A stretch of 64,000 nt of DNA from a virus. Every line of letters starts with the position of its first letter. The first letter of the stretch is position 1. The DNA lies in IMG/VR virus record IMGVR_UViG_3300000553_000005, positions 75,817-139,816 of that record. The stretch is one strand, 5' to 3'. The translations under genes and the position numbers were made by a program. This document shows, piece by piece, positions 1,645 to 60,409 of this stretch. Below the pieces are notes generated by a model. It saw only the letters and a program-made list of their open reading frames with translations. It searched no databases and was not told the DNA's origin.

Positions 1645-1714
1645 AAATTTAAAAAGACGCAATCAGCAATCTACCTCCTTAATAATGGTAAAAGCGTCTT
1701 GAATTATCTAAACC

Positions 1715-2333: not shown

Positions 2334-3161
2334 ATGGTTAGAGCAAAGAAAATTAAACCAACTTTGGCAGAATTAATTAAAATCCCCCCTATTCATGATA
2401 TAGAGGAATGGGTAGTGGTGGGGATTGATCCTTCATTATCCCGCACTGGCCTTTGTCTTCTTAATAATTTAGGGGATCATTGGCGTTGGAGCCACATTGC
2501 ATCTCTGAAACCTTTTGATGCCTCCTATCCGACTTGGGTTCGTGCAATCATGATGGCAGAGTATATTCTTGCTTCAGTAAATAAACTAGATGGCTGTATT
2601 CCTGATATTCTTGGGGATTTTACTCCAACTAAAGGTTTAATTATAACTCTGGAAGCTCCAACCCCCATGAATGACCATCTCAATATTGTGAATAAAATCC
2701 TTCATACTATTATTGTTCCTGGTTTGAATATACATTTTAAAGAGGTGTATATTCAACACGTTAATGCCATGACTATGAGATCTTGTTTTGGCCTTAAAGC
2801 TACCGGCAATAACAAATATGAGAACATTCAGAAGGCTCAAGAATTTGCCCCTGCTGCTATCTATCCTGGCATTGATTCTGATTCCTGTGATGCTATTCTT
2901 TTATCTCAGTTTGGGCGTTATACGGCTGACTTCTTTTTGGGTAAAGAGTTATCAGAAATCCCCGATAGGATAGCCTTAGCCCTTTGCGACTTCACTGATG
3001 TAGAGAAAGGTAAGGGGAGAAATGCTTATGTAGTCAAAAAAGGAATTCTTTATAACCCTGCTTACTGGTTTAAATATGAACCCACAGAATACAGTATTAG
3101 TATAAAGGACGCACGAATCCCGCCTAAGAAAAGGCTGGAAGTTATCAAGACCATCATATAG
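2334..3161 (+). CDS. RuvC-like Holliday junction resolvase
   Basis: VVGIDPSLSRTG, LEAP and DSCDA motifs; ATG at 2334 directly follows the previous stop. Confidence 0.75.
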   Translation: MVRAKKIKPTLAELIKIPPIHDIEEWVVVGIDPSLSRTGLCLLNNLGDHWRWSHIASLKPFDASYPTWVRAIMMAEYILASVNKLDGCIPDILGDFTPTKGLIITLEAPTPMNDHLNIVNKILHTIIVPGLNIHFKEVYIQHVNAMTMRSCFGLKATGNNKYENIQKAQEFAPAAIYPGIDSDSCDAILLSQFGRYTADFFLGKELSEIPDRIALALCDFTDVEKGKGRNAYVVKKGILYNPAYWFKYEPTEYSISIKDARIPPKKRLEVIKTII

Positions 3162-3169
3162 GAGAAAAA

Positions 3170-4417
3170 ATGGCAAGGAAGACACTAAAGACAGCGACAT
3201 TCAGTTCTGGGGATAAAAAGGCCGCATTTCTTGAAGCTATGGGAATGATGGATGATTCTGATGCGACTACCTTAAAGATGGATATTGAAGAGAAATTCAC
3301 CCCCACTCGTTCCATTGTCCTGGATAACGTCTTACGCCTTAGAGGACTTCCTCGCGGTGGAAGAATGATTCATATTCATGGTAAAGAGCATGGTGGTAAG
3401 TCCACCCTCTGCTACTCTATGGTCAAGGCTTATCAGCAACAAGAAGACGAGCCTGTTGTTATCTTTGATTTTGAAGGTACTGCAACTCCCGGCTATCTCC
3501 GTGGTCTAGGTGTAGATTGTTCCCGCGATGCTTTGGCTGTCATGAAGCCAACTTGCGTAGAAGATGCTATCAAGCAGACCATTACTTTCATGAAGGCAGG
3601 AGTTAAACTGTTTATTTATGACTCTATTCCTCGTATGAAATCCATGGTTGACGAAAAAGAAATTTTCAATGGTGGAGCCTTCAAGCAATCTATTGGTGAT
3701 CATCCTAAGGTCATGCAAAAATTTTTTGATATCTTACTTCCTTACGCCATTAAGTACGATTGCTTATTTATTATGGTTAATCAGATTCGTGCAAGAATTG
3801 AAATGACCCAAGAGGCATTACAGGCTCAAAAATATGCTTCAATCACCAATGTGAATTACTCCCTTCCTGGTGGTTACTCAGTTCGTTTCACTTCTTCGCT
3901 TTCTATTGAAGTTAACGTAGCTAAAGCTTTTCGTGCGGGAGGTTACGCTAATGACCCATTTGTTCTTGAACCAGGAGATAACAAGGGGGACTATGTAGCC
4001 ACCAAAATTAAAATTCGTATCATCAAGAACAAAGCCACCACCGGAGGTTATCGTGAATTCCATCTCTGGCTTCGTCCTGGTTTGGGTCTTGATGATTGGA
4101 TTTCAGTCCGTGAGTTGGCCCGTAATTATGGCCTTATCACCAATAAGGGGAAGAAATATATTGTTGGGAACGAAGATAATCCAATCAAGGTATACGATTC
4201 AAAAGACGATGCTATTGAAGGTCTAGTTGTTAACCCTGATTATGAAGTTCTAAGCCGTTTGAAAGTAATTGTCGCTGCCGCGATTGAAAGCGACCATGGC
4301 GCGTATACTACTGAACTTACTGATGGAGATAAATATGCCGCTGGTGAGAAGGATATTGAAACTTCTACAGTTACAGTAGCCTCTTTTGAAGAGGATGATG
4401 ATGACTCATTTAGCTAA
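3170..4417 (+). CDS. recA: RecA/UvsX-like recombinase
   Basis: GLPRGG..IHGKEHGGKST Walker A, FDFEGT, IYDS, NQIR, PGG and IKNK motifs. Confidence 0.9.
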   Translation: MARKTLKTATFSSGDKKAAFLEAMGMMDDSDATTLKMDIEEKFTPTRSIVLDNVLRLRGLPRGGRMIHIHGKEHGGKSTLCYSMVKAYQQQEDEPVVIFDFEGTATPGYLRGLGVDCSRDALAVMKPTCVEDAIKQTITFMKAGVKLFIYDSIPRMKSMVDEKEIFNGGAFKQSIGDHPKVMQKFFDILLPYAIKYDCLFIMVNQIRARIEMTQEALQAQKYASITNVNYSLPGGYSVRFTSSLSIEVNVAKAFRAGGYANDPFVLEPGDNKGDYVATKIKIRIIKNKATTGGYREFHLWLRPGLGLDDWISVRELARNYGLITNKGKKYIVGNEDNPIKVYDSKDDAIEGLVVNPDYEVLSRLKVIVAAAIESDHGAYTTELTDGDKYAAGEKDIETSTVTVASFEEDDDDSFS

Positions 4418-4580
4418 TAGCACTCATATTTATTACGATCCAAAGTTCAAGCCCCAAGATGATCAAGGCTGTATGCACAAGGCTTGTCCTGAGTGTCATG
4501 GAACAGGTAGAAAAACGGACGGTTCTATGTGTATCCACTTTATCTCTTGTCCGTGTCCCAAATGCACCCCATATTGTTAA
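4386..4580 (+). CDS. Small Cys-rich zinc-finger protein
   Basis: CPECHGTG and CPCPKC; start uncertain. Confidence 0.55.
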   Translation: MKRMMMTHLANSTHIYYDPKFKPQDDQGCMHKACPECHGTGRKTDGSMCIHFISCPCPKCTPYC

Positions 4581-4589
4581 GGAGAACAG

Positions 4590-5225
4590 ATGAAAGATGC
4601 AACTGATATCGCAGTAGTACTAGACCGTTCCGGCTCCATGCAAAATATTCAACATGATACGGAAGGGGGATTTAACACTTTTGTTAAAGAACAGAAGGAG
4701 CAACCGGGTGAGGCTAAATTAAGTCTTTACCAATTTGATGATAAGTATGAGGTAGTTTACGAGAATATGGATCTGAATAATGTTCCTGCTCTTTCTCTTA
4801 TTCCTCGCGGCTACACCGCCCTTCTGGATGCTGTTGGTAAAACCATTCAGAGCCGTGGAGAGTATTATGCTTCTCTGGCTGAAGAAGATCGCCCTGAACG
4901 AATTGTTTTCGTTATCATCACTGATGGAGAAGAGAATCATTCAACTGAGTATACTCTGGATGCCGTTAAGAGCCTGATTACACTCCAGAAAGAGACTTAC
5001 AAATGGCAATTTGTGTTCCTTGGGGCCGATATCAATTCTGTCGCTGTCGGAAGCTCCATGGGTATTTCCAAAGGATCTACAATGGATTTTGCTAAATCTC
5101 CTGTTGGAGTGGCTAACACTTACTCCAATCTATCGAAGAATATTTCCAGCTATCGTTCTTGTGCTAGTAGAGAGGTGTCCTTCTCTGATGCTGATCGTAT
5201 TGATTCCATGAAGACTGATAATTAA
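4590..5225 (+). CDS. vWA domain protein
   Basis: MIDAS DRSGSM, TALLDA, IITDGEEN. Confidence 0.9.
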   Translation: MKDATDIAVVLDRSGSMQNIQHDTEGGFNTFVKEQKEQPGEAKLSLYQFDDKYEVVYENMDLNNVPALSLIPRGYTALLDAVGKTIQSRGEYYASLAEEDRPERIVFVIITDGEENHSTEYTLDAVKSLITLQKETYKWQFVFLGADINSVAVGSSMGISKGSTMDFAKSPVGVANTYSNLSKNISSYRSCASREVSFSDADRIDSMKTDN

Positions 5226-5236
5226 GGTGCCTTTGA

Positions 5237-6388
5237 ATGGCTAAGATTTACACGTTGTCAGCAAGAAATTTCCAGTCATGGCGAGAATTTAATCTCCCCA
5301 TGACTGGATTTACGGTTATTATTGGTCCCTCTGATCGGGGTAAATCAGCTATCATTCGTTCCTTGCGTGGAATTTTACGTAATCAAGTAGGGGCCAACCA
5401 TATTACCTACGGAGAAAAAGAAGTATCTGTAAAGTTGTCTTCGATTGATGGAGATGTAAAACTTTCTCGTAATGCTAAAACCACTGCTTATACTGTAAAC
5501 GATGAAGAATATAGTAAGCTAGCGGGTGCGGTCCCCCCTATTGTAGAGGCAATGAAGTTTAATGAGGTAGAAGTTAATGGAGTTAAGCTTGATCCTATTT
5601 TTGCTGGGCAGTTTGATTCTCAATTTATGCTTGATCTTAGTCCAGCCGAGTTAAACTCCATTTTTGGGTTATTTTCTTCTACAGAGAAATTGAATTCCGG
5701 AAAGAAAAATGCCGCTTCTAAGAATCTAGAATTTAATGCTACGGCTAAATTTCTAGCTTCTGAAATCCAAGAAGCTGAAGCTAAGAGTGGCCTACTAGAA
5801 ACCTTAAATGATGAAATGGAACAGCAGAGCCAAGAAATTTTTAAATTAGAAGATTCTTACAACTCTGCATTGACCTCTCTAAATCTTTTAGATCTGTTAA
5901 ACGCTGGTCAAAAGAGAAAAAGACTCTTGAAAAAGGCAGTCGGCTTTCCCCTACCATTTACTGAAGTATTAGTTAACACTTTAAATTCTGGTAGAAAATT
6001 GGTTCAATATACTAGAAGGAAGCAAAATCTCGAAACGATCAAAAAAGCTGCTTTAATAGACATTCCTTTTGGAAAAATTTTAGAACAGCAGTTTTTGATC
6101 ATCACTAAATTAATAAAAACTAAAAAACTTATCCAAAGAGTAGCGGCTTACAAACAGCTACCTATGGATCCAATTCAGAACGAACTTAATCCTCTTTTCT
6201 CTCTTGTCAGCAAATTGACTACTTTTTCCAAATTGAATAAAAGTGTCATCAATAGGAAATTGGAATTGGATCTAAGTATTAAACAAATAACCGAAATCAC
6301 CAAACAGCTTGATGATTTACAAGGTAAGAGTATTCAGTGTCCTAAGTGTGGGCACTTTTTCACTGGAGTCACCCATGGGCATGAATGA
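5237..6388 (+). CDS. SbcC/Rad50-like ATPase, N-terminal half only, ending at the zinc hook
   Basis: NFQS, Walker A GPSDRGKS, Q-loop, coiled coil, terminal CPKC; no ABC signature or Walker B. Confidence 0.8.
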   Translation: MAKIYTLSARNFQSWREFNLPMTGFTVIIGPSDRGKSAIIRSLRGILRNQVGANHITYGEKEVSVKLSSIDGDVKLSRNAKTTAYTVNDEEYSKLAGAVPPIVEAMKFNEVEVNGVKLDPIFAGQFDSQFMLDLSPAELNSIFGLFSSTEKLNSGKKNAASKNLEFNATAKFLASEIQEAEAKSGLLETLNDEMEQQSQEIFKLEDSYNSALTSLNLLDLLNAGQKRKRLLKKAVGFPLPFTEVLVNTLNSGRKLVQYTRRKQNLETIKKAALIDIPFGKILEQQFLIITKLIKTKKLIQRVAAYKQLPMDPIQNELNPLFSLVSKLTTFSKLNKSVINRKLELDLSIKQITEITKQLDDLQGKSIQCPKCGHFFTGVTHGHE

Positions 6389-25119: not shown

Positions 25120-28100
25120 TTAATTTCTCACTATGTTATGTTCTGTTACTAAATTTCCACCCAAAGTTTTCAAAGCAAATGCCTTGGCTTTTTCTGGATC
25201 AAAATCCTTGCAAGAGAAGACGTTAATGAAAATTTTCTGAAGTTCATCCAAGGCATGAATAGTTATAGAAGATTCGTAAAGGAACTGAACTACGCTGATT
25301 CCATCTTTCTTGGGATGGGTTTTGTAAGTTCCTTCAAACTTATCCTGGCCCCAACTGTAAATTGGTCCTCGCTGCATATCAATTTCATCACAGAGGTCTT
25401 CGGCAAACTTTTTCAAGATGTGGGTCTGGAATTTATCTGGGTCAACATCATGAAGATCCATAATAACCTCTTGGCCGTAATGCTCTTTCTTAGTTTCTTC
25501 AATAATTTCATCGCTATCATCGGCTACCTTTTTAATATAAGTAATGTAGCCCTGCTTGACACTGGCGGCTTTTGAATAGGGAGTGATGGCCGTAACCACT
25601 TCTACTTGCTTCTTACTACGAAGGCCCTGCATAGCCTTATCCCACAAATCTTTGTCCAGTTTGAAAGTTGTGCCTAAGTGGTAAACTTGACCAAATTGGT
25701 CTTCTATATGTTTCTTAAAGCTTCTTAGTGGAGTCATCCCTGAGAGATTTTCTAAGATAAACTCTTGAAGTTCTTCGATGAACTGCTCTCTCGGATAGTA
25801 TTTTTCCATGCCACCATAGGCTTGTTTGATTAGCAGACTCGCTTTTTTAACTGATAATTCTCTCAATTGTTGCTCCGTAATTTGCCTCGTGTCTAAAAGA
25901 ACTTGAAGTGTTGCCTGATAGAATCCAGAGTCAATTCCCATAGTTTCATTTCTTATGGCTCTCTCGGCTATCTTTTCATCGTACATCTGGAAATGAGAAT
26001 CTTCATCCATTCCTAATTTTTTCTGAATATAAGCCATGGTATCATCCATATCCTGCATATAGTAGGAAATGAAGCAGGATACAGCACAAAAAGAGCCTTT
26101 TTTATAATTAATTTCATTTCCCGCTGGTATAGCTTCATGGCAATCTTCACATTTTTGACAGAACCCACCCCTTACCAAAATTTTCTCACGTTCTGCCTCA
26201 AGATCATCATAACCATTGATGTTTAGTTGTTCCTCAATATAGGTTCTAGCTCTCCTCTTTTTATTTTCATCAGCATTCGGCAGAAACTTATCTATTAAAC
26301 GATTTATCGCTGGTCGGAAATACTCCCTTACACAATAACTGCAACAATAGGGATTGCCAGATAAATAGATGGCATCTTCTTCTGCCACAGGCTCATCACA
26401 ATTAGCACAATTGGTTAGCTCCTGATCTTCATGATCTTCATAGAGATCATTATCATTGTTAATATCCCAAGCACCAGGGAAGATAATTTTTTGCTCCATC
26501 GATTCTTTAATCTTCGGATCAAATTCTGCAAGTGTTTCAAAAATCCACCAGTAATTTGAATCTACATCATATTTTTGCCCAACATCAGCACTATCACTAA
26601 ACGGATCCCTACTAAATATCTGATCTCCAATATTTCTACCATCTACATCTTGGCATTCAATAGCACCAACTCCTTGACCTTGAATATTTTTGGTCGGGAC
26701 TCGGATGAGTGCATAGCGATCAGAACCATAATGCTCATTGGTGCCACTGTCCTGAGTAATAACATAGAGAGGACCACGTTCCAGATAGGCTTCAGCGGTC
26801 CCCTCCCCCTGTGTACACCAATGGGAACCTGTTGACATAAGCACCAAGGCTTCTGGAGTGGTACAACGATAGAAGGAGTAACCTCTGGTCTTAGCTAAAG
26901 GCTCACAACCATCTCTGAGATACTTATCCTTCTCTCTAATTAATTCTCTACCCTGCTCATTTTTGGATAGGTCGGCTCTAGTAGCCGTGTCATATATTTC
27001 TTTAAGATCTGAAAGACCTAACTTCATGATATCTTTTTCACCAGTAAAATTAGCACTACGTTTTAGCATAGCATAACGTTCAAGCATAATTTTAATATCA
27101 TCTCGTTTCATTGTTCCGGCTAGCGAAGATCTACCTTCTGGATCATCCATAGCTTTTCTAGTCTCTCTACATAACCATTCTAAATATTCTCCATTTTGAG
27201 AAGGGTCAACTAAAGATAGAGTATCTACCCCATGAGGAGGGAGATGATATTTAGAAGCAAGAGCTTTTTTCTTAGCTTCCGAAGCGGCGGCAAATTTCAA
27301 TAGAGCAGATTTAAAGTTAGAAAGTGAAGATTTCTTCAGTTTTTCAGAAGGTTCAGAGGTAGGTTCCAGTTCATCTGTTGCTATTTCACCCTCTATTTCT
27401 GGTGCTGATTCCTCTTGCACTTTGCCCATTCCACTATTTTCAATAATATCATCAATATCTGTACTCGTAGGGGTGAATTGGTCCTTAACATATTCTAGTA
27501 TGTCATCGTAAAGCGTATCATAAGTCATCAGTTCATCATAAACCGGCTGAAGGACTTTCAAGGCCCATTTATAATCCCCTAGAGTTAATCCGGGGGTCAC
27601 TTTTTCTACTCTGTCACTCTGCCCATTTTCAAAAGCTCTAATACCTGATGTCAGATTAGCTAAATACCAATCAAGAGCATAGTGATGGTTAACAGTATTG
27701 GGGAGACCCATTCGGATAGCTGCTTCATGCATTGCTCTAAATACTTTGGTGGCCTTTGGATCCCAGCCTGTCCCATAAATGAGTTCCTCGGCATCATCCA
27801 TAGCTTTTTGATTTCTTTCTTCTTTTCCTGGAATAGTTGCAACAAATGCCTTTACTTTTTTCTCAATTATATCATTATAAAACTCTTTAAAACATCCCTC
27901 GCAACAAAAATTATGGCTTTCTTTATCAGGGGAGTCATCATTATTCACATAAATAGTATCGTAGCTGTCTGTTTCCATATATGCATCACATTGATCACAT
28001 TTTTCAAAATGAGCCATATCATTAATATCATTAAAAATAAATCCTTCTCGGATATATCTTTCCAAATCCCTATCATAATTAGACAACCATTGAACTATTC

Positions 28101-50028: not shown

Positions 50029-51144
50029 ATGCTAGAGGTACAGAAATTTCTTTTGTCCAATACTTTATCGGACCTTAAGGAAAAGTATGCCATCAATTAT
50101 AGGGTGGGTGATATAGAAAGTTTGGTTAGTTTAAATTACAACCAGATTGAGTCTCCTATGGGAGAGAAGATTGTGCAGGAATGCCGACAGCTAATTCTGG
50201 AACTTGATACTTGGAGGGTAGTGTCTATAGCCCTAGACAAATTTTTCAATTACGCAGAACAGAAGTCCCCTGAGTTTGATTGGTCTAGCTTTAAGACTTA
50301 TGAAAAGATTGATGGTTCTCTGATCTCGTTTTTTCACTATAATGGTCAGTGGTATTGTGCTACTCGCTCTGTCCCTGGAGCTAACACTCCAGTTGATGAG
50401 ACTGGTATGACTTTTAAGGATCTGGTCCTTCTTACTTTGAAGGACATGGGGACTTCCTGGGAGGGATTAACCTCTTACATGGAGCCTGGATACACTTATA
50501 TTTGTGAGCTTACTTCTGAAGAGAATAGAGTTGTTTGCCAGTATAATGAGCGTAAATTAACTCTCCTAGCTATTCGTTCTATTCATGAACCTTTTTTCAA
50601 AGAAAATAATTTGGAAATTTGGGAAGGCTATAATCAAGATTTTCCTCTGCCTCTTGTTACTCGTTATGATGGGTTTTCCAAGGAAGCTATCCTGGCTGAA
50701 GTGCAGGAGCGTAACCCCACTGAGCATGAAGGTTATGTGCTGGTGGATAAGAACTTCAATCGGGTTAAGATAAAGAGTAATGCTTACTGCTTAATGAGTT
50801 ATCAACGTGACGGTTTGGGTAAGTCTAACCGTGCCCGACTGGAACTGATCTTCTCTGACAAGGTGGATGACGTTATTGGTCTTCTGCCTAAGTTCGTGCA
50901 GGAGAAGATTCTTTCTCTCCAGACCGCTCTAAATAACCTCGTTCAGAGTATTAATCAGACGTACGCTGAAATAAAGAATATTGAATCACAGAAGGGCTTC
51001 GCTGCCGAAGCTATCAAGTATCGCTATTCGGCTGCACTATTCGCTCTCAGAGGTGGTCGTATCACGGACGCTCTGGAGTGGCTCAAGAGGGCTTCGGTCA
51101 AGAGTGTGCTGGGTTGGTTGCAGGTTGATGAGGAGGAAGAATAA
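50029..51144 (+). CDS. T4 Rnl1-like RNA ligase
   Basis: KFFN, EKIDGS, ATRS, ELTS..NRVV, EGYV and RVKIKS..Y. Confidence 0.92.
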   Translation: MLEVQKFLLSNTLSDLKEKYAINYRVGDIESLVSLNYNQIESPMGEKIVQECRQLILELDTWRVVSIALDKFFNYAEQKSPEFDWSSFKTYEKIDGSLISFFHYNGQWYCATRSVPGANTPVDETGMTFKDLVLLTLKDMGTSWEGLTSYMEPGYTYICELTSEENRVVCQYNERKLTLLAIRSIHEPFFKENNLEIWEGYNQDFPLPLVTRYDGFSKEAILAEVQERNPTEHEGYVLVDKNFNRVKIKSNAYCLMSYQRDGLGKSNRARLELIFSDKVDDVIGLLPKFVQEKILSLQTALNNLVQSINQTYAEIKNIESQKGFAAEAIKYRYSAALFALRGGRITDALEWLKRASVKSVLGWLQVDEEEE

Positions 51145-51772: not shown

Positions 51773-52021
51773 ATGAAATACTTCCTAGCTATCGCCGCTG
51801 TTCTAGCTCTTACAGCTTGCACAGACGCTCAACGTGCCAAGATTACTTCCGTTGGTTCAGCCCATCATGTCCAGCTTTACTCAGGTGGTAAGCTAATTGG
51901 CGAATGGGATTCTACTGGTGCTGTGACCAATGAAGAACATTCTGATGGTTTTGTCTTTGTGGACGCGAAGACCCATAAGAATATTGAGGTTGCGGGTCAG
52001 ATTATCATCACTCAAGAATAA
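51773..52021 (+). CDS. Phage lipoprotein
   Basis: Signal peptide with lipobox LTAC; AGGAG RBS. Confidence 0.75.
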   Translation: MKYFLAIAAVLALTACTDAQRAKITSVGSAHHVQLYSGGKLIGEWDSTGAVTNEEHSDGFVFVDAKTHKNIEVAGQIIITQE

Positions 52022-52070
52022 ATTTTTTGCAAGTGAACAAATTTTTGAAATTTCAGTATTAAGATAGAGT

Positions 52071-52181
52071 AGGGCCAAGGATAACAAAAGAACACGCAGT
52101 TGTTGTTACCTCCTTAAAGCAGTACGAAGTTGCAGTTGTCATTTTCAAGCGAAGCACATTAAGATTAAACTTCTTGGCCCT
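52071..52181 (+). ncRNA. Stem-closed RNA unit A (possible Y-like RNA)
   Basis: AGGGCCAAGGA/TTCTTGGCCCT 11-bp closing stem just after the AGTATTA motif. Confidence 0.55.
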
Positions 52182-52191
52182 TCTTTGACAG

Positions 52192-52299
52192 TAGACGCAA
52201 TTCAGCGACATTCCTATTTATGATGCTGAGAGGAGGGGTGGTCGAACCCTCAAAGATAGTTTCCCATTTCGGGTTAGTACCTTCGACCGAAAGCGTCTA
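52192..52299 (+). ncRNA. RNA unit B (divergent repeat member with pseudoknot)
   Basis: TAGACGC/GCGTCTA stem; GAGGG/CCCTC hairpin whose loop GGTCGAA pairs with TTCGACC. Confidence 0.65.
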
Positions 52300-52312
52300 G
52301 TTTTTGTTTTAC

Positions 52313-52385
52313 CCTCTAATTCACGGCAGTCCGTAGAGAGTACGGTGAGAGAAGTCGCCCAAAAAAGGCGAAGCGACATTAGAGG
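52313..52385 (+). ncRNA. RNA unit C
   Basis: CCTCTAAT/ATTAGAGG stem enclosing CCGTA/TACGG and TCGCC/GGCGA hairpins. Confidence 0.55.
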
Positions 52386-52395
52386 TTATTGACAG

Positions 52396-52748
52396 AAGGC
52401 ACACACCAGCAACCCAACCCTTTGACAGTGAGTTAGAGCCCACTCACACTAATAAAAAGCTCAAAAGGTGCCTTGTATTTTTTGTTTTACAGGTTTGTGT
52501 GATCCTGTTCAAATCACATTCACTATTCTTGAGACACACACCAGCAACCCAATCGTAGGGGAAACTCTACATCGTATAGTTAAGCCGCAGTGAGACTTAA
52601 CAAACAGGTTTGTGCGATCCTGTTCAAATCGCTCAAAGGTGTCTCGCCTTTTGTCGATAAGACACACACCAGCAACCCAAAATCTTACAAGGTTACTTGT
52701 ACCGAGTGGTTGGATACGCCACGTTAACTTGTGTCCAAAAGGTGTCTT
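52396..52748 (+). repeat. Three repeat RNA units D (52396-52474), E (52531-52645) and F (52659-52748)
   Basis: Invariant CACACACCAGCAACCCAA; covarying 7-bp closing stems; variable pseudoknot interiors. Confidence 0.85.
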
Positions 52749-52789
52749 GCTTTTTGTCCCATCGTGGGACCATTCATAGGAGAACGACA

Positions 52790-54253
52790 ATGACCAACCA
52801 GCTAATCGCCGCCCTCAAGACTTCACAGAACGTGACCTTCACTGAAAATGGTGCTGTGTCTAATGAAACTACGTTTAGTGATATTCTCGATCTGTTTTAT
52901 CACGCCCCTGCTCGTAGGGGTCAGGATAACACCGACCTCTTCAAGAAGGCGATGGCCGAAGATCATCAGACTGCGGTTCGTGCGTTGTTCTACATTCGTG
53001 ACATTCGTGGTGGACAGGGTGAGCGTGAAACGTTCCGCCAGGGACTTCGTTTCCTCCATGCCAACTACCCCGCTATTTTCAATGCGGTTATCTCTCTGGT
53101 GCCTGAGTATGGCCGTTGGGATGACGTTATTGAATACGTGCATGACAAGGGTGTACAGCAGCTTGTGGCTACCCAGCTATCGGCTGACTCCATTTCTGAC
53201 AAGTCTGTCTCTCTTTTGGCTAAGTGGATGCCTTCGGTGAACACTTCCAGCAAGAAGACCAAGGCTCTGGCCCACAAGTGGCTCAAGGTGCTTGGCCTGA
53301 CTGAGCGTGAGTATCGTAAGGTACTGTCTCGTCTTCGCGCTAGGACCGATGTTACTGAGGTCAAAATGTCTGCTCGTACCTGGTCTGCCATTAACTACTC
53401 TAGGGTAGCTTCTAAGGCCAGCTTGCGCTATCGCACTGCTTTCCACAAGCACGATGGCTCCCGCTACACCAGCTTCCTTGAGGCTGCTGTCAAGGGCGAG
53501 GTGAAGATCAACTCTGCCACTCTCTACCCTTACGATCTGACTGGGAAGTATCTTGGTTTCGGTATTTTCGGCTCCAATGGTACCCTGGACATGACCGTTG
53601 AGGCTCAGTGGAAGCAGCTTCCTAACTATTGCGCTACTGACACTAACGCTCTAGTGGTCTGCGATACCTCTGGCTCCATGTATGGTGGACTTCCCGGTGC
53701 CCCCTCTCCTATCTCTGTAGCTGTGTCTCTGGCACTCTACATCTCCGAAAGGAACCAGGGTGCTTTCAAGGATCACTTCATCACTTTCTCCGACCAGCCC
53801 AAGCTCCAGCGCATCAAGGGTACCACTCTGTTCGATAGGTGCAACTCCCTGAAGCAAGCCAATTGGGGTATGAACACCAATCTTCAGGGTGTGTTCGATA
53901 CCATTCTGTCCACTGCTGTTCGTGGTCGCATCCCCCAGGCTGAGATGCCTTCGGCTCTCTTCATCGTGTCGGATATGGAGTTTGACTCCTGCTGCGATAC
54001 TCATACTAACTTTGATCACATCAAAGCTAAGTATGCTGCGGCTGGCTACACCATGCCCAAGCTGGTGTTCTGGAACGTGAACTCGCGCAATATGCAGACT
54101 CCCGTTACCATGGACGAGAAGGGAACCTATCTAGTTTCGGGTTGCTCCCCCACCATCTTTGCCAAGGCCATCAATACTCAGGCTACTACACCCATACAGA
54201 TGATGCTGGAAACATTAAATGGCCCTCGCTACGAGAAGATTGTAGTTGCTTAA
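52790..54253 (+). CDS. DUF2828-family protein (TROVE/Ro60-like helical domain plus vWA)
   Basis: TENGA, RDIRGGQGER, YGRWDD, LAKWMPS, LYPYD, DTSGSM, SDMEFD and VFWNV; AGGAG RBS. Confidence 0.88.
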   Translation: MTNQLIAALKTSQNVTFTENGAVSNETTFSDILDLFYHAPARRGQDNTDLFKKAMAEDHQTAVRALFYIRDIRGGQGERETFRQGLRFLHANYPAIFNAVISLVPEYGRWDDVIEYVHDKGVQQLVATQLSADSISDKSVSLLAKWMPSVNTSSKKTKALAHKWLKVLGLTEREYRKVLSRLRARTDVTEVKMSARTWSAINYSRVASKASLRYRTAFHKHDGSRYTSFLEAAVKGEVKINSATLYPYDLTGKYLGFGIFGSNGTLDMTVEAQWKQLPNYCATDTNALVVCDTSGSMYGGLPGAPSPISVAVSLALYISERNQGAFKDHFITFSDQPKLQRIKGTTLFDRCNSLKQANWGMNTNLQGVFDTILSTAVRGRIPQAEMPSALFIVSDMEFDSCCDTHTNFDHIKAKYAAAGYTMPKLVFWNVNSRNMQTPVTMDEKGTYLVSGCSPTIFAKAINTQATTPIQMMLETLNGPRYEKIVVA

Positions 54254-54272
54254 CGGCACTATAGTAGCGAGT

Positions 54273-54306
54273 AAAGGTGAGAATCGTAGTAGATTCTCAC
54301 CTTTTT
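54273..54306 (+). terminator. Rho-independent terminator
   Basis: AAAGGTGAGAATC/GATTCTCACCTTT followed by Ts. Confidence 0.85.
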
Positions 54307-54725: not shown

Positions 54726-55151
54726 ATGCTAATCAAGAAACAAACCCCTGCCTCAGTAAATCTTTTTGGAGGTGGCTCTCCTTTCTCCTGGAACCCTTTT
54801 GGTTCATGGGATCAGTCTTTTGGGAATTTCTTTTCCGAATTGGAGCCAACTTGTTGGGATCAAGCCGAATCAGAAGACAGCGTGACTGTATCTTTAGTAG
54901 TTCCTGGGTTTAAACAAGAAGAACTAGATATCGAAGTTCATCATCGTGGTTTTTCTGTCAAGGGCAAATCAACAGTCTATTCTCGTAGTTATGCTATTGA
55001 TAGGACTTTGGGCTGTAAGATTGTTCCTGATAGCACTCAAGCAATTTTAGAGAATGGAATTTTAACTTTAACTTTTAAGAAGGAATCGGCTAGAAAAACT
55101 GAAGCGGTTATTAAAGTTAAGGCTCACTCTCCTAATGAGTTAGCCGGTTAA
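54726..55151 (+). CDS. Small heat-shock protein (Hsp20/alpha-crystallin)
   Basis: VPGFKQEELDIEV and AILENGILTL. Confidence 0.85.
   Translation: MLIKKQTPASVNLFGGGSPFSWNPFGSWDQSFGNFFSELEPTCWDQAESEDSVTVSLVVPGFKQEELDIEVHHRGFSVKGKSTVYSRSYAIDRTLGCKIVPDSTQAILENGILTLTFKKESARKTEAVIKVKAHSPNELAG

Positions 55152-55171: not shown

Positions 55172-60409
<5,238 letters not shown>

What the first reader, a model, noticed from the sequence alone, without database searches (positions are those of the whole stretch)
52055..54306. Candidate new RNP system: modular ncRNA array co-transcribed with a DUF2828 (TROVE/Ro60-like) protein
Seen: about 700 nt without a convincing ORF, starting just after an AGTATTA motif and split by U-rich linkers into stem-closed units of 73-115 nt. 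Units D, E and F share an exact 18-mer, CACACACCAGCAACCCAA. The closing stems differ only compensatorily: AAGGCAC/GTGCCTT, GAGACAC/GTGTCTC, AAGACAC/GTGTCTT, and TAGACGC/GCGTCTA in unit B. Interiors are unrelated, and each ends in a pseudoknot. The DUF2828 gene and a strong terminator follow. Known: Ro60/TROVE-vWA proteins bind the conserved end-stem of neighbouring Y RNAs, whose other part is a variable effector module. Inference: this DUF2828 protein binds the stem plus CAGCAAC handle and displays interchangeable RNA cargos, close to an RNA ligase gene.
Basis: partly seen in the sequence, partly recalled or inferred. Interest (0 to 1): 0.95.

Follow-up and report, generated by a model that had tools for sequence, protein, structure and literature searches.

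The report
Phage Ro60-like protein with handle RNAs
A large phage carries, just in front of a gene for a ring protein predicted to fold like the RNA-binding protein Ro60, four small structured RNAs that share one conserved "handle"; the same RNA-protein pairing recurs in most phages that have this gene, and I found it in no paper or RNA catalogue, so it is probably an undescribed relative of the Ro60/Y-RNA particle.

Summary
Window 52022-52789 has no convincing ORF. It contains four end-paired RNA units: B, D, E and F. Each has a covarying 7-bp closing stem, a 4-nt linker, CAGCRAC, a variable interior, an A-rich 3' side, the 3' strand and then G. A fifth unit lies at 1654-1700. Units A and C lack the handle and have no comparative support.

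The downstream protein (DUF2828+DUF7788) has a confident AlphaFold model. Its best 13 PDB matches are all Ro60/TROVE proteins, and its MIDAS motif is intact.

The handle RNA is a large family:
- 71 of 80 IMG/VR DUF2828 loci carry it on the gene strand (176 units against 1 on the opposite strand).
- All 154 covariance-model hits are on the gene strand, and all 7 stem pairs covary.
- It is absent from four tRNA-rich phages that lack DUF2828.

No Rfam family matches the window units. Only Listeria-phage members give sub-threshold matches, to Dictyostelium Class I RNA.

Best reading (0.7): these are Y-RNA-like partner RNAs of a Ro60-like protein. Binding and expression are untested. The RNA-ligase linkage is not conserved. 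Earlier reports in this scan found the same pairing on other DNA many times.

The parts
52045..52072 (+). Possible promoter or transcript start; unverified.
   Evidence: Partly conserved with the 65%-identity relative L030: TGAAA...CAGTAT...TAGAGTA. The sigma-70 consensus scan finds no good match here.
52068..52184 (+). Unit A: closed by a 12-bp stem, no CAGCAAY handle. Not a family member.
   Evidence: Inverted repeat I1, 92% complementary. Fold z-score -1.43. No covariance-model or regex hit.
52192..52299 (+). Unit B: TAGACGC-AATT-CAGCGAC ... GAAA-GCGTCTA, then G and a U-tract.
   Evidence: Regex score 11.5. Aligned with the other units in A4. Fold z-score -1.87.
52310..52388 (+). Unit C: closed by an 11-bp stem, no handle. 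Not a family member.
   Evidence: Inverted repeat I3. Fold z-score -2.58. No model hit.
52396..52474 (+). Unit D: AAGGCAC-ACAC-CAGCAAC ... AAAAG-GTGCCTT, then G and a U-tract.
   Evidence: Covariance model R1 scores 16.3 bits, E 0.027, with filters off.
52489..52520 (+). Spacer copy of a 27-nt element that can form a compact H-type pseudoknot (S1 ACAGG:CCTGT; S2 GTGAT:ATCAC).
   Evidence: Direct repeat D3. Its one difference from the copy inside E is compensated in the S2 partner (A6).
52531..52645 (+). Unit E: GAGACAC-ACAC-CAGCAAC ... CAAAG-GTGTCTC, then G. Encloses the second pseudoknot-element copy at 52604-52635.
   Evidence: Fold z-score -2.43.
52659..52748 (+). Unit F: AAGACAC-ACAC-CAGCAAC ... 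AAAAG-GTGTCTT, then G. Orthologue of L030 unit 1.
   Evidence: R1 scores 17.2 bits.. Aligned with L030 unit 1.
52790..54253 (+). DUF2828+DUF7788 protein, 487 aa. Ro60-like HEAT-repeat ring plus vWA domain with a MIDAS motif. AGGAG ribosome-binding site at 52778-52782.
   Evidence: Pfam E 2e-35 and 2e-51. PHROG 850 'RNA-binding protein'. AlphaFold2 pLDDT 82.8, pTM 0.74. Foldseek top 13 hits are all Ro60. D292/S294/S296/T363/D395 invariant.
54273..54304 (+). Intrinsic terminator after the gene.
   Evidence: 13-bp stem with 5 G-C pairs and a T-run.
1654..1700 (+). Isolated fifth family member, 50 kb upstream: AAGACGC-AAT-CAGCAAT ... AAAA-GCGTCTT, then G.
   Evidence: R1 scores 40.4 bits, E 4e-6. 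It is the best hit in the window and in the whole 139.8-kb record.
50029..51144 (+). T4 Rnl1-type RNA ligase. Context only; the linkage is not conserved.
   Evidence: Pfam RNA_lig_T4_1, E 1e-20. PHROG 562. No homologue within 3 kb of DUF2828 in 84 other loci.

Best explanation
The array encodes small non-coding RNAs that are the partner RNAs of the Ro60-like DUF2828 protein encoded just downstream. This would be a Y-RNA-like ribonucleoprotein built from a different protein family and a different RNA family.

Proposed mechanism:
- Each RNA pairs its 5' and 3' ends into a 7-bp helix whose sequence is free to vary.
- That helix is followed by an asymmetric internal loop: an invariant CAGCAAY on the 5' side and an A-rich run on the 3' side. 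A conserved G follows the helix.
- This 'handle' is the inferred protein-binding module. It is analogous to the conserved terminal stem through which Y RNAs bind the outer face of the Ro60 ring.
- The interior is a swappable effector module. In this phage it holds hairpins and possible pseudoknots. In other phages it holds a whole tRNA-like core.
- Array and gene are probably one transcript, cut in the U-rich linkers.
- The likely role is RNA surveillance, repair or anti-defence during infection.

Shown here: the motif, its covariation, its genomic coupling to the gene, and the protein's predicted fold. Inferred: binding, processing and function.
For: 1. The protein is predicted to have the Ro60 fold. 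The AlphaFold2 model has pLDDT 82.8 and pTM 0.74. Its 13 best PDB matches are all Ro60/TROVE structures aligned over the whole length, with probability 1.0. The MIDAS residues are invariant.
2. The RNA and the gene are coupled.
   - 71 of 80 IMG/VR DUF2828 loci (40-58% protein identity) carry at least one unit on the gene strand.
   - That is 176 units, against 1 on the opposite strand and 0.33 in shuffles.
   - The median distance is 149 nt upstream or 222 nt downstream, and none lies inside the gene.
   - All 154 covariance-model hits at E<=0.01 in 600 kb are on the gene strand.
3. In five genomes of 180-365 kb, 19 of 24 model hits lie within 4.5 kb of the single DUF2828 gene.
4. T4, T5, SPO1 and Syn9 have tRNA arrays but no DUF2828. 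They give no hits.
5. The reverse test also holds. A handle pattern scanned over IMG/VR gave 59 stem-closed units.
   - 22 of them have DUF2828 75-1850 nt away on the same strand.
   - One of the 62 unclosed matches does.
   - Among units far from any DUF2828, 6 of 7 near-complete genomes carry the gene elsewhere.
6. The stem is an RNA helix. Over 146 distinct sequences, 99.6% of cells pair and all 7 pairs covary.
7. The closest relative, L030 (65% protein identity), has two units in the same place.
8. The pairing spans distant phage groups.
   - Listeria phage CKA15: three units between a promoter-like site and CKA15_055.
   - Synechococcus phage B3.
   - An E. coli Felixounavirus.
9. Published hints fit.
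   - CKA15_055 is Rsr-like by HHpred and is found in virions (PMC12282133).
   - Ro60-like gp130 of Bas63 counters the ppl defence (PMC11482910).
Against: - There is no direct evidence of binding, and no expression data for this phage.
- The window units score weakly with the covariance model (16-17 bits) because their interiors are long. B and E are recognised only by the regex.
- Some units lie far from the gene: window 1654-1700, and a second cluster in a 365-kb genome.
- One complete 58-kb genome has a unit but no DUF2828.
- The stem statistics come from sets selected for, or fitted to, the stem.
- The RNA ligase neighbour is not conserved, so the repair link rests on analogy.
- Ro60 similarity is structural only. 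Sequence identity is 12-14%, with no Pfam TROVE hit and no PDB sequence hit.
Confidence: 0.7

Rival explanations
1. The handle RNAs are real small RNAs, but they work independently of DUF2828. They might be bound by a host or another phage factor, or serve as processing or stability modules of tRNA-type operons. They would lie near DUF2828 only because both belong to the same early, tRNA-rich genome region.
For: - In most phages both the units and DUF2828 sit inside large tRNA arrays.
- Some units are tens of kb from the gene.
- One complete genome has a unit without DUF2828.
- The similar Dictyostelium Class I RNA is reported to bind an RRM protein, Rnp1A (PMC7919456).
Against: - This window has four units beside the gene and no tRNA within 64 kb.
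- tRNA-rich phages lacking DUF2828 have no units.
- Distances are tight, with a median of 149-222 nt, and strand agreement is complete.
- 6 of 7 near-complete genomes with distant units still encode DUF2828.
Confidence: 0.2
2. The units are mainly cis-acting. They would form a structured leader with partial terminators or attenuators that sets how much transcription reaches the DUF2828 gene, possibly fed back by the protein, rather than acting as trans-acting RNAs.
For: - Each window unit ends in a stem followed by a U-rich tract.
- The last unit ends 41 nt before the start codon.
- The units are on the same strand as the gene, with no gene in between.
Against: - In a third of cases the units lie downstream of the gene: 61 of 176.
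- They also occur alone.
- In other phages the 3' flank is not U-rich.
- The closing stems enclose 46-82 nt, unlike intrinsic terminators, and the terminator scan does not call them.
Confidence: 0.07
3. The repeats act at the DNA level: miniature mobile elements, recombination sites or protein-binding sites, rather than RNA genes.
For: - They have short inverted termini and occur in several copies per genome.
- D, E and F share a 22-mer, which suggests recent duplication.
Against: - The termini differ between copies yet always stay complementary, including G-U pairs, which make sense only in RNA.
- Strand bias relative to a neighbouring gene is absolute.
- Interiors are unrelated, and no transposase or target duplications are seen.
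Confidence: 0.03

Closest known systems
Ro60 (Rsr, TROVE+vWA) with Y RNAs: vertebrate Ro60-Y RNA, Deinococcus Rsr-Yrn1, Salmonella and mycobacteriophage Rsr-YrlA/YrlB (PMC4201824), and Thermus phage phiLo Ro60-Yrl1/2 (PMC12135203)
   Same: - The protein is a ring of helical repeats plus a vWA domain with a MIDAS motif.
- The partner RNAs are encoded within 2 kb of the gene.
- They are closed by a 5'/3' terminal stem that carries the conserved element, with a variable second module.
- That second module is tRNA-like in some members.
   Different: - The protein is in Pfam DUF2828/DUF7788, not TROVE, and shares 12-14% identity with Ro60.
- The RNA handle (7-bp stem plus CAGCAAY plus an A-rich strand) is unrelated in sequence to the Ro-binding bulged helix.
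- It is also unrelated to the YrlA GNCGAA motif.
- No Y_RNA or YrlA hit appears in Rfam even at E<=10.
- Where a tRNA-like core occurs, it is attached through its acceptor stem.
- The units come in arrays of up to six.
Dictyostelium Class I RNAs (Rfam RF01414; PMC7919456)
   Same: - A short covarying stem joins the 5' and 3' ends.
- A conserved motif ending in ACAGCAA follows the 5' strand directly.
- The rest of the RNA is variable.
- The Rfam consensus also shows an A-rich 3' side and a G just after the stem.
- The RF01414 model aligns end to end with two Listeria-phage units.
   Different: - Those matches are below threshold: 22.8 and 20.1 bits against a gathering score of 41.5.
- The window units give no RF01414 hit at all.
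- They are longer (79-115 nt against 42-65) and have ACAC or AATT before CAGCAAC instead of CCUUA.
- Class I RNAs are reported only from dictyostelids.
- Class I RNAs are reported with an RRM-protein partner.
- Homology is not established.
Stable small RNAs of unknown function in phage tRNA clusters, such as T4 species 1 and 2 RNAs (from my own knowledge)
   Same: They are small structured RNAs co-encoded with tRNAs in large lytic phages.
   Different: T4 has neither DUF2828 nor any hit to the handle model.

Membership tests
Ro60/TROVE protein family | Ring of HEAT-like helical repeats followed by a vWA domain | tested here: met
   AlphaFold2 model with pLDDT 82.8. The Foldseek top 13 PDB hits are all Ro60, aligned over the whole length, with TM 0.40-0.59.
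Ro60/TROVE protein family | Sequence match to the Pfam TROVE domain or to solved Ro60 chains | tested here: not met
   Pfam gives only DUF2828 and DUF7788. A profile search against PDB sequences finds nothing at E<=1.
Ro60/TROVE protein family | MIDAS motif (DxSxS...T...D) in the vWA domain | tested here: met
   VVCDTSGSM, with D292, S294, S296, T363 and D395 invariant across 36 homologues.
Ro60/TROVE protein family | Binds Y RNA by its terminal stem and misfolded RNA in the central cavity | not testable with these tools
   Needs EMSA, RIP-seq or a solved structure.
Y RNA / YrlA (Rfam) | Match to the Rfam Y_RNA or YrlA covariance models, including the Ro-binding helix and the GNCGAA T-loop-like motif | tested here: not met
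   No hit at gathering score or at E<=10 over 51950-52850.
Y RNA / YrlA (Rfam) | Encoded within about 2 kb of the Ro-type gene; 5' and 3' ends paired; variable second module | tested here: met
   Units B to F lie 41-598 nt upstream of the gene and have covarying terminal stems.
Dictyostelium Class I RNA (RF01414) | Reaches the Rfam gathering score of 41.5 bits | tested here: not met
   The window units give no hit at E<=10. The Listeria phage units score 22.8 and 20.1 bits.
Dictyostelium Class I RNA (RF01414) | Short terminal stem, plus a conserved motif ending in CAGCAA next to the 5' strand, plus a variable remainder | tested here: met
   (A4) for the window units. The architecture is as described in PMC7919456.
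DUF2828-associated handle RNA (undescribed family, defined here by model R1) | A 7-bp covarying terminal stem, 2-4 nt linker, CAGCAAY, A-rich 3' side, and G after the stem | tested here: met
   Met by B, D, E, F and 1654-1700. Not met by A and C.
DUF2828-associated handle RNA (undescribed family, defined here by model R1) | Same strand as a DUF2828 gene and next to it | tested here: met
   The four array units lie directly upstream of the gene. The pattern is general.
Type III toxin-antitoxin RNA arrays (ToxI-like) | Tandem near-identical repeats of about 36 nt followed by an endoribonuclease toxin gene | tested here: not met
   The units are 79-115 nt with unrelated interiors. The downstream protein has the Ro60 fold, not that of a ToxN-type nuclease.

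The most novel reading that the evidence does not exclude
The phage handle RNAs and the Dictyostelium Class I RNAs are one ancient RNA family. Their general partner would be the DUF2828 Ro60-like protein, which also occurs in bacteria and eukaryotes. That would give a molecular partner and a function to an orphan RNA class known for 20 years. It would also define a second Ro/Y-type particle spanning viruses and cells, which phages use with swappable cargo (tRNA mimics, pseudoknots) against host RNA-targeting defences.
Probability: 0.12. Interest if true: 0.9.

Novelty: new variant of a known kind. Interest (0 to 1): 0.74.

Why it matters
- Ro60/Y-RNA particles are a classic but still poorly understood RNA-surveillance system.
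- This finding links a distinct protein family (DUF2828, in about 700 sequenced phages) to a sharply defined, easily searchable RNA handle.
- That turns 'hypothetical protein next to tRNAs' into a testable ribonucleoprotein.
- It gives exact RNA candidates for two published guesses (Listeria phage CKA15 and E. coli phage Bas63).
- It ties in a reported anti-defence phenotype (ppl) and virion packaging of the protein.
- The modular design, a constant handle with swappable cargo, suggests that phages use the ring as a platform for presenting RNA decoys or adaptors.
- It also explains many unannotated gaps in phage tRNA arrays.

Tried and rejected
- **Known RNA classes.** ARAGORN and Rfam found nothing over the window at any threshold, so the units are not tRNAs, Y RNA, YrlA or any other catalogued family.
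- **DNA-level relatives.** blastn against 50,697 phage records found none for the array.
- **Exact 16-mer scan of IMG/VR.** It gave only single matches per contig, about as many as I estimated chance would give.
- **Single-protein locus search in IMG/VR.** It found nothing. The metagenome scan gave the key relative L030.
- **The look-up of encoding contigs.** I could not fetch the contexts of the closest homologues (86%, 77% and 74% identity).
- **Sigma-70 promoters at the TTGACAG boxes before B and D.** There is no -10 box at the right spacing (my reading).
- **tRNA-like cargo in the window units.** None was detected, unlike in relatives.
- **K-turn reading of the handle.** Rejected, because there are no tandem G-A pairs.
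- **Conserved linkage to Rnl1 or to the small neighbouring ORFs.** None was found in 84 loci.
- **Expression evidence from the CKA15 paper.** It gives coordinates for only one of its three highly transcribed regions (26,236-26,727). That region does not overlap the handle units (record 25,288-25,552). I could not use its RNA-seq as evidence of expression.
Full report
**What is in the window**

The window is the last 64 kb of a 139.8-kb IMG/VR phage record, estimated about half complete, with 40% G+C. Between a small ORF ending at 52021 and the ATG at 52790 lie 768 nt with only short ORFs. ARAGORN finds no tRNA in the whole window. Rfam 15 gives nothing at gathering score. It also gives nothing relevant at E<=10 over 51950-52850.

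- There are six stem-closed segments, A to F.
- The exact 18-mer occurs three times, against a chance expectation of 0.01.
- The closing stems of B, D, E and F differ only by compensatory changes.
- U-rich tracts follow each unit.
- A 487-aa DUF2828+DUF7788 gene follows.
- A strong terminator lies at 54273-54304.

Single-unit folding energies are only modestly better than shuffles, with z from -1.4 to -2.6. Thermodynamics alone would not carry the case.

**The key comparative result**

A metagenome contig (L030) encodes a DUF2828 protein 65% identical to this one. In the same place, just upstream, it has two units with the same plan: GAGACAC-AGGC-CAGCAAC...AAAG-GTGTCTC-G and AAGGCGC-AAC-CAGCAAT...AAAAG-GCGTCTT-G.

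I then fetched 80 IMG/VR loci whose DUF2828 proteins are only 40-58% identical to the window's. I scanned them with a simple rule: a 7-bp stem with at most one G-U pair, a 1-5 nt linker, CAGC[AG]A[ACT], and a score that favours a following G and an A-rich 3' side.
- 71 of the 80 loci carry at least one unit on the gene strand.
- That is 176 units, against 1 on the opposite strand and 0.33 per shuffle replicate.
- The median distance is 149 nt upstream or 222 nt downstream of the gene, and none lies inside it.

A covariance model (R1) built from 56 short units gave 154 hits at E<=0.01 in 600 kb searched on both strands. Every hit is on the gene strand. On the resulting alignment of 146 distinct sequences, 99.6% of stem cells pair and all seven pairs covary. 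That is 275 two-sided changes, against about 82 in shuffles. These sets were selected for, or fitted to, the stem. The independent evidence is therefore the strand and position bias.

The family consensus is WAGAYRC, then 2-4 nt, then CAGCAAY, a G-poor stretch, a variable interior, an A-rich run, GYRUCUW, and G. Lengths run from 39 to 126 nt, with a median of 58.

**Specificity for DUF2828 rather than for tRNA arrays**

In most phages the gene sits inside large tRNA arrays, so this control matters.
- In five genomes of 180-365 kb, 19 of 24 R1 hits lie within 4.5 kb of the single DUF2828 gene.
- T4, T5, SPO1 and Syn9 are tRNA-bearing and lack DUF2828. They give no hits.
- KVP40 has the gene and gives one weak hit.
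- In the reverse direction, the pattern AGAYRCTAACAGCAAT gave 121 matches in IMG/VR, of which 59 are closed by a stem.
- Of those 59, 22 have DUF2828 75-1850 nt away on the same strand. Only 1 of the 62 unclosed matches does.
- Among units far from any DUF2828, 15 of 30 records encode the gene elsewhere.
- Among the near-complete genomes in that set, the figure is 6 of 7.
- By comparison, about 1.4% of sequenced phages carry the gene: 705 of 50,697 records.
- The window itself has four units beside the gene and no tRNA at all.

**The protein**

- The AlphaFold2 model is confident: pLDDT 82.8, pTM 0.74.
- Its 13 best Foldseek matches in the PDB are all Ro60/TROVE proteins, aligned over the full length. 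They are Thermus phage phiLo Ro60, Xenopus and human Ro60, and Deinococcus Rsr, with probability 1.0 and TM 0.40-0.59.
- Sequence identity to these is only 12-14%. Neither Pfam TROVE nor a PDB profile search detects the relationship.
- The vWA domain keeps a complete MIDAS motif, invariant in 36 homologues.
- The protein is therefore a Ro60-like ring by predicted structure, but a separate sequence family.

**Cargo**

In relatives, some units enclose a complete tRNA cloverleaf core. In L097, D, anticodon and T arms plus 3 bp of acceptor stem sit inside the handle (tRNA model positions 5-66, 48 bits). In this window no tRNA-like signal is detectable.

- The two copies of a 27-nt element (52489-52520 and 52604-52635) differ at one loop position. 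That change is compensated in the proposed S2 partner, T:A becoming C:G.
- Unit F and its orthologue in L030 differ in the proposed S1 by a compensatory U:A to A:U change (my reading).

This is thin, and I rate the claim as partly supported.

Units A and C have long closing stems but no handle, no model hit and no relative to compare with. I do not count them as members.

**A fifth member**

R1's best hit in the whole record is at window 1654-1700, at 40.4 bits. It lies in a gap between two genes of unknown function, 50 kb from the array.

**What is known**

- True TROVE Ro60 proteins with YrlA-type Y RNAs are described in bacteria and some phages (PMC4201824, PMC12135203).
- The jumbo-phage survey notes ROT/TROVE proteins near RNA-repair genes (PMC7824862).
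- For the DUF2828 family I found only two published guesses.
  - The Listeria phage CKA15 paper notes that CKA15_055 is Rsr-like by HHpred and is present in virions. It suggests that nearby abundant RNAs might be Y RNAs (PMC12282133).
  - The PhageMaP preprint finds that Ro60-like gp130 of Bas63 counters the ppl defence. It suggests that some neighbouring 'tRNA genes' might be Y RNAs (PMC11482910).
- Neither paper defines the RNA.
- CKA15_055 is a DUF2828 homologue. Three handle units lie between a promoter-like TTGACA...TATCAT site and its start codon. The third has CAGCAAA as its handle.
- A full-text search for DUF2828 returned five papers, none about this RNA-protein pair. A search for the motif together with Ro60 or phage found no description either.

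**Dictyostelium Class I RNAs**

This lead came from earlier reports of this scan. Class I RNAs have the same plan: a terminal stem, a conserved motif adjacent to the 5' strand, and a variable remainder (PMC7919456). The Rfam consensus shows that motif as CUUACAGCAA.

RF01414 aligns end to end with two CKA15 units, but below threshold, at 22.8 and 20.1 bits against 41.5. It does not hit the window units. I treat this as a resemblance, not as membership.

**Weak points**

- There is no binding or expression evidence.
No homologue of it, or of the other flanking ORFs, lies within 3 kb of DUF2828 in 84 other loci. CKA15 does have RtcB and an RNA ligase a few kb downstream.
- Some units lie far from the gene.
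- One complete genome has a unit without the gene.

**Earlier reports of this scan**

The same protein-RNA pairing has been reported many times on other DNA. 566 earlier notes from at least 340 genomes mention the search terms. My results were obtained independently before I read those notes, and they agree with them. One earlier report was later checked: what was seen stood, while its boldest reading was given low odds.

**Verdict**

The interpretation, a Ro60-like protein with modular handle RNAs, is supported by every computation available here.

Noticed in passing
window 1654-1700 (+): An isolated, high-scoring handle RNA (R1 40.4 bits) lies in the gap between two genes of unknown function (883-1644 and 1715-2332). 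It is 50 kb from the DUF2828 gene.
   Followed up: partly
window 52183-52192 and 52420-52429; also 52389-52395: CTTTGACAGT occurs twice exactly: at the A/B junction and inside unit D. TTGACAG directly precedes the closing stems of B and D. It looks like a -35 box, but no -10 box follows at the right spacing. Its meaning is unknown; it could be a processing site.
   Followed up: partly
G000 contig positions 63047-69679 (before the window): ARAGORN calls five tRNA genes: Lys, Gln, Leu, Thr and Lys. Several have unusual lengths (85-91 nt). This phage's tRNA region is about 60 kb from its DUF2828 gene, unlike in most relatives.
   Followed up: no
window 3170-6388: A RecA/UvsX-like gene (3170-4417) is followed by a small vWA-domain protein (4590-5225) and an AAA ATPase (5237-6388). 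This may be a separate vWA-ATPase pair.
   Followed up: no
window 55244-60409: A 1721-aa protein has collagen triple-helix repeats and a Gp49-type pectate-lyase-like domain. It is probably a tail fibre or depolymerase. An Hsp20 gene lies at 54726-55151.
   Followed up: no
L097 1397-1491; L100 2615-2736; L098 924-1047: These handle units enclose a tRNA or tRNA-like core. In L097 the core has D, anticodon (CAU) and T arms, with only 3 bp of acceptor stem joined to the handle.
   Followed up: partly
L045 4575-4686; L070 4829-4941; L058 4874-4985; L100 2200-2329; and others: Many tRNA-model hits beside the units are 110-130 nt long, so they are tRNAs with inserts of about 40-55 nt. Synechococcus phage B3 annotates one as 'tRNA-Pseudo'. 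I did not examine the nature of the inserts.
   Followed up: no
L070 2522-2773; L051 5205-5402; L104 1919-1980: The tRNA arrays around DUF2828 also contain a cyanobacterial-type (permuted) tmRNA, a group I intron and a 'freshwater-1' RNA motif.
   Followed up: no
G001 (365-kb genome holding L075), 267-294 kb: A second cluster of five handle-RNA hits lies 130-157 kb from the only DUF2828 gene in this complete genome.
   Followed up: no
L114 (Listeria phage CKA15) 3010-3990: Promoter-like TTGACA sites at 3010 and 3428 precede long non-coding stretches. One of these is the published most-transcribed region (record 26,236-26,727). These stretches have no clear handle and may be other phage ncRNAs.
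   Followed up: partly
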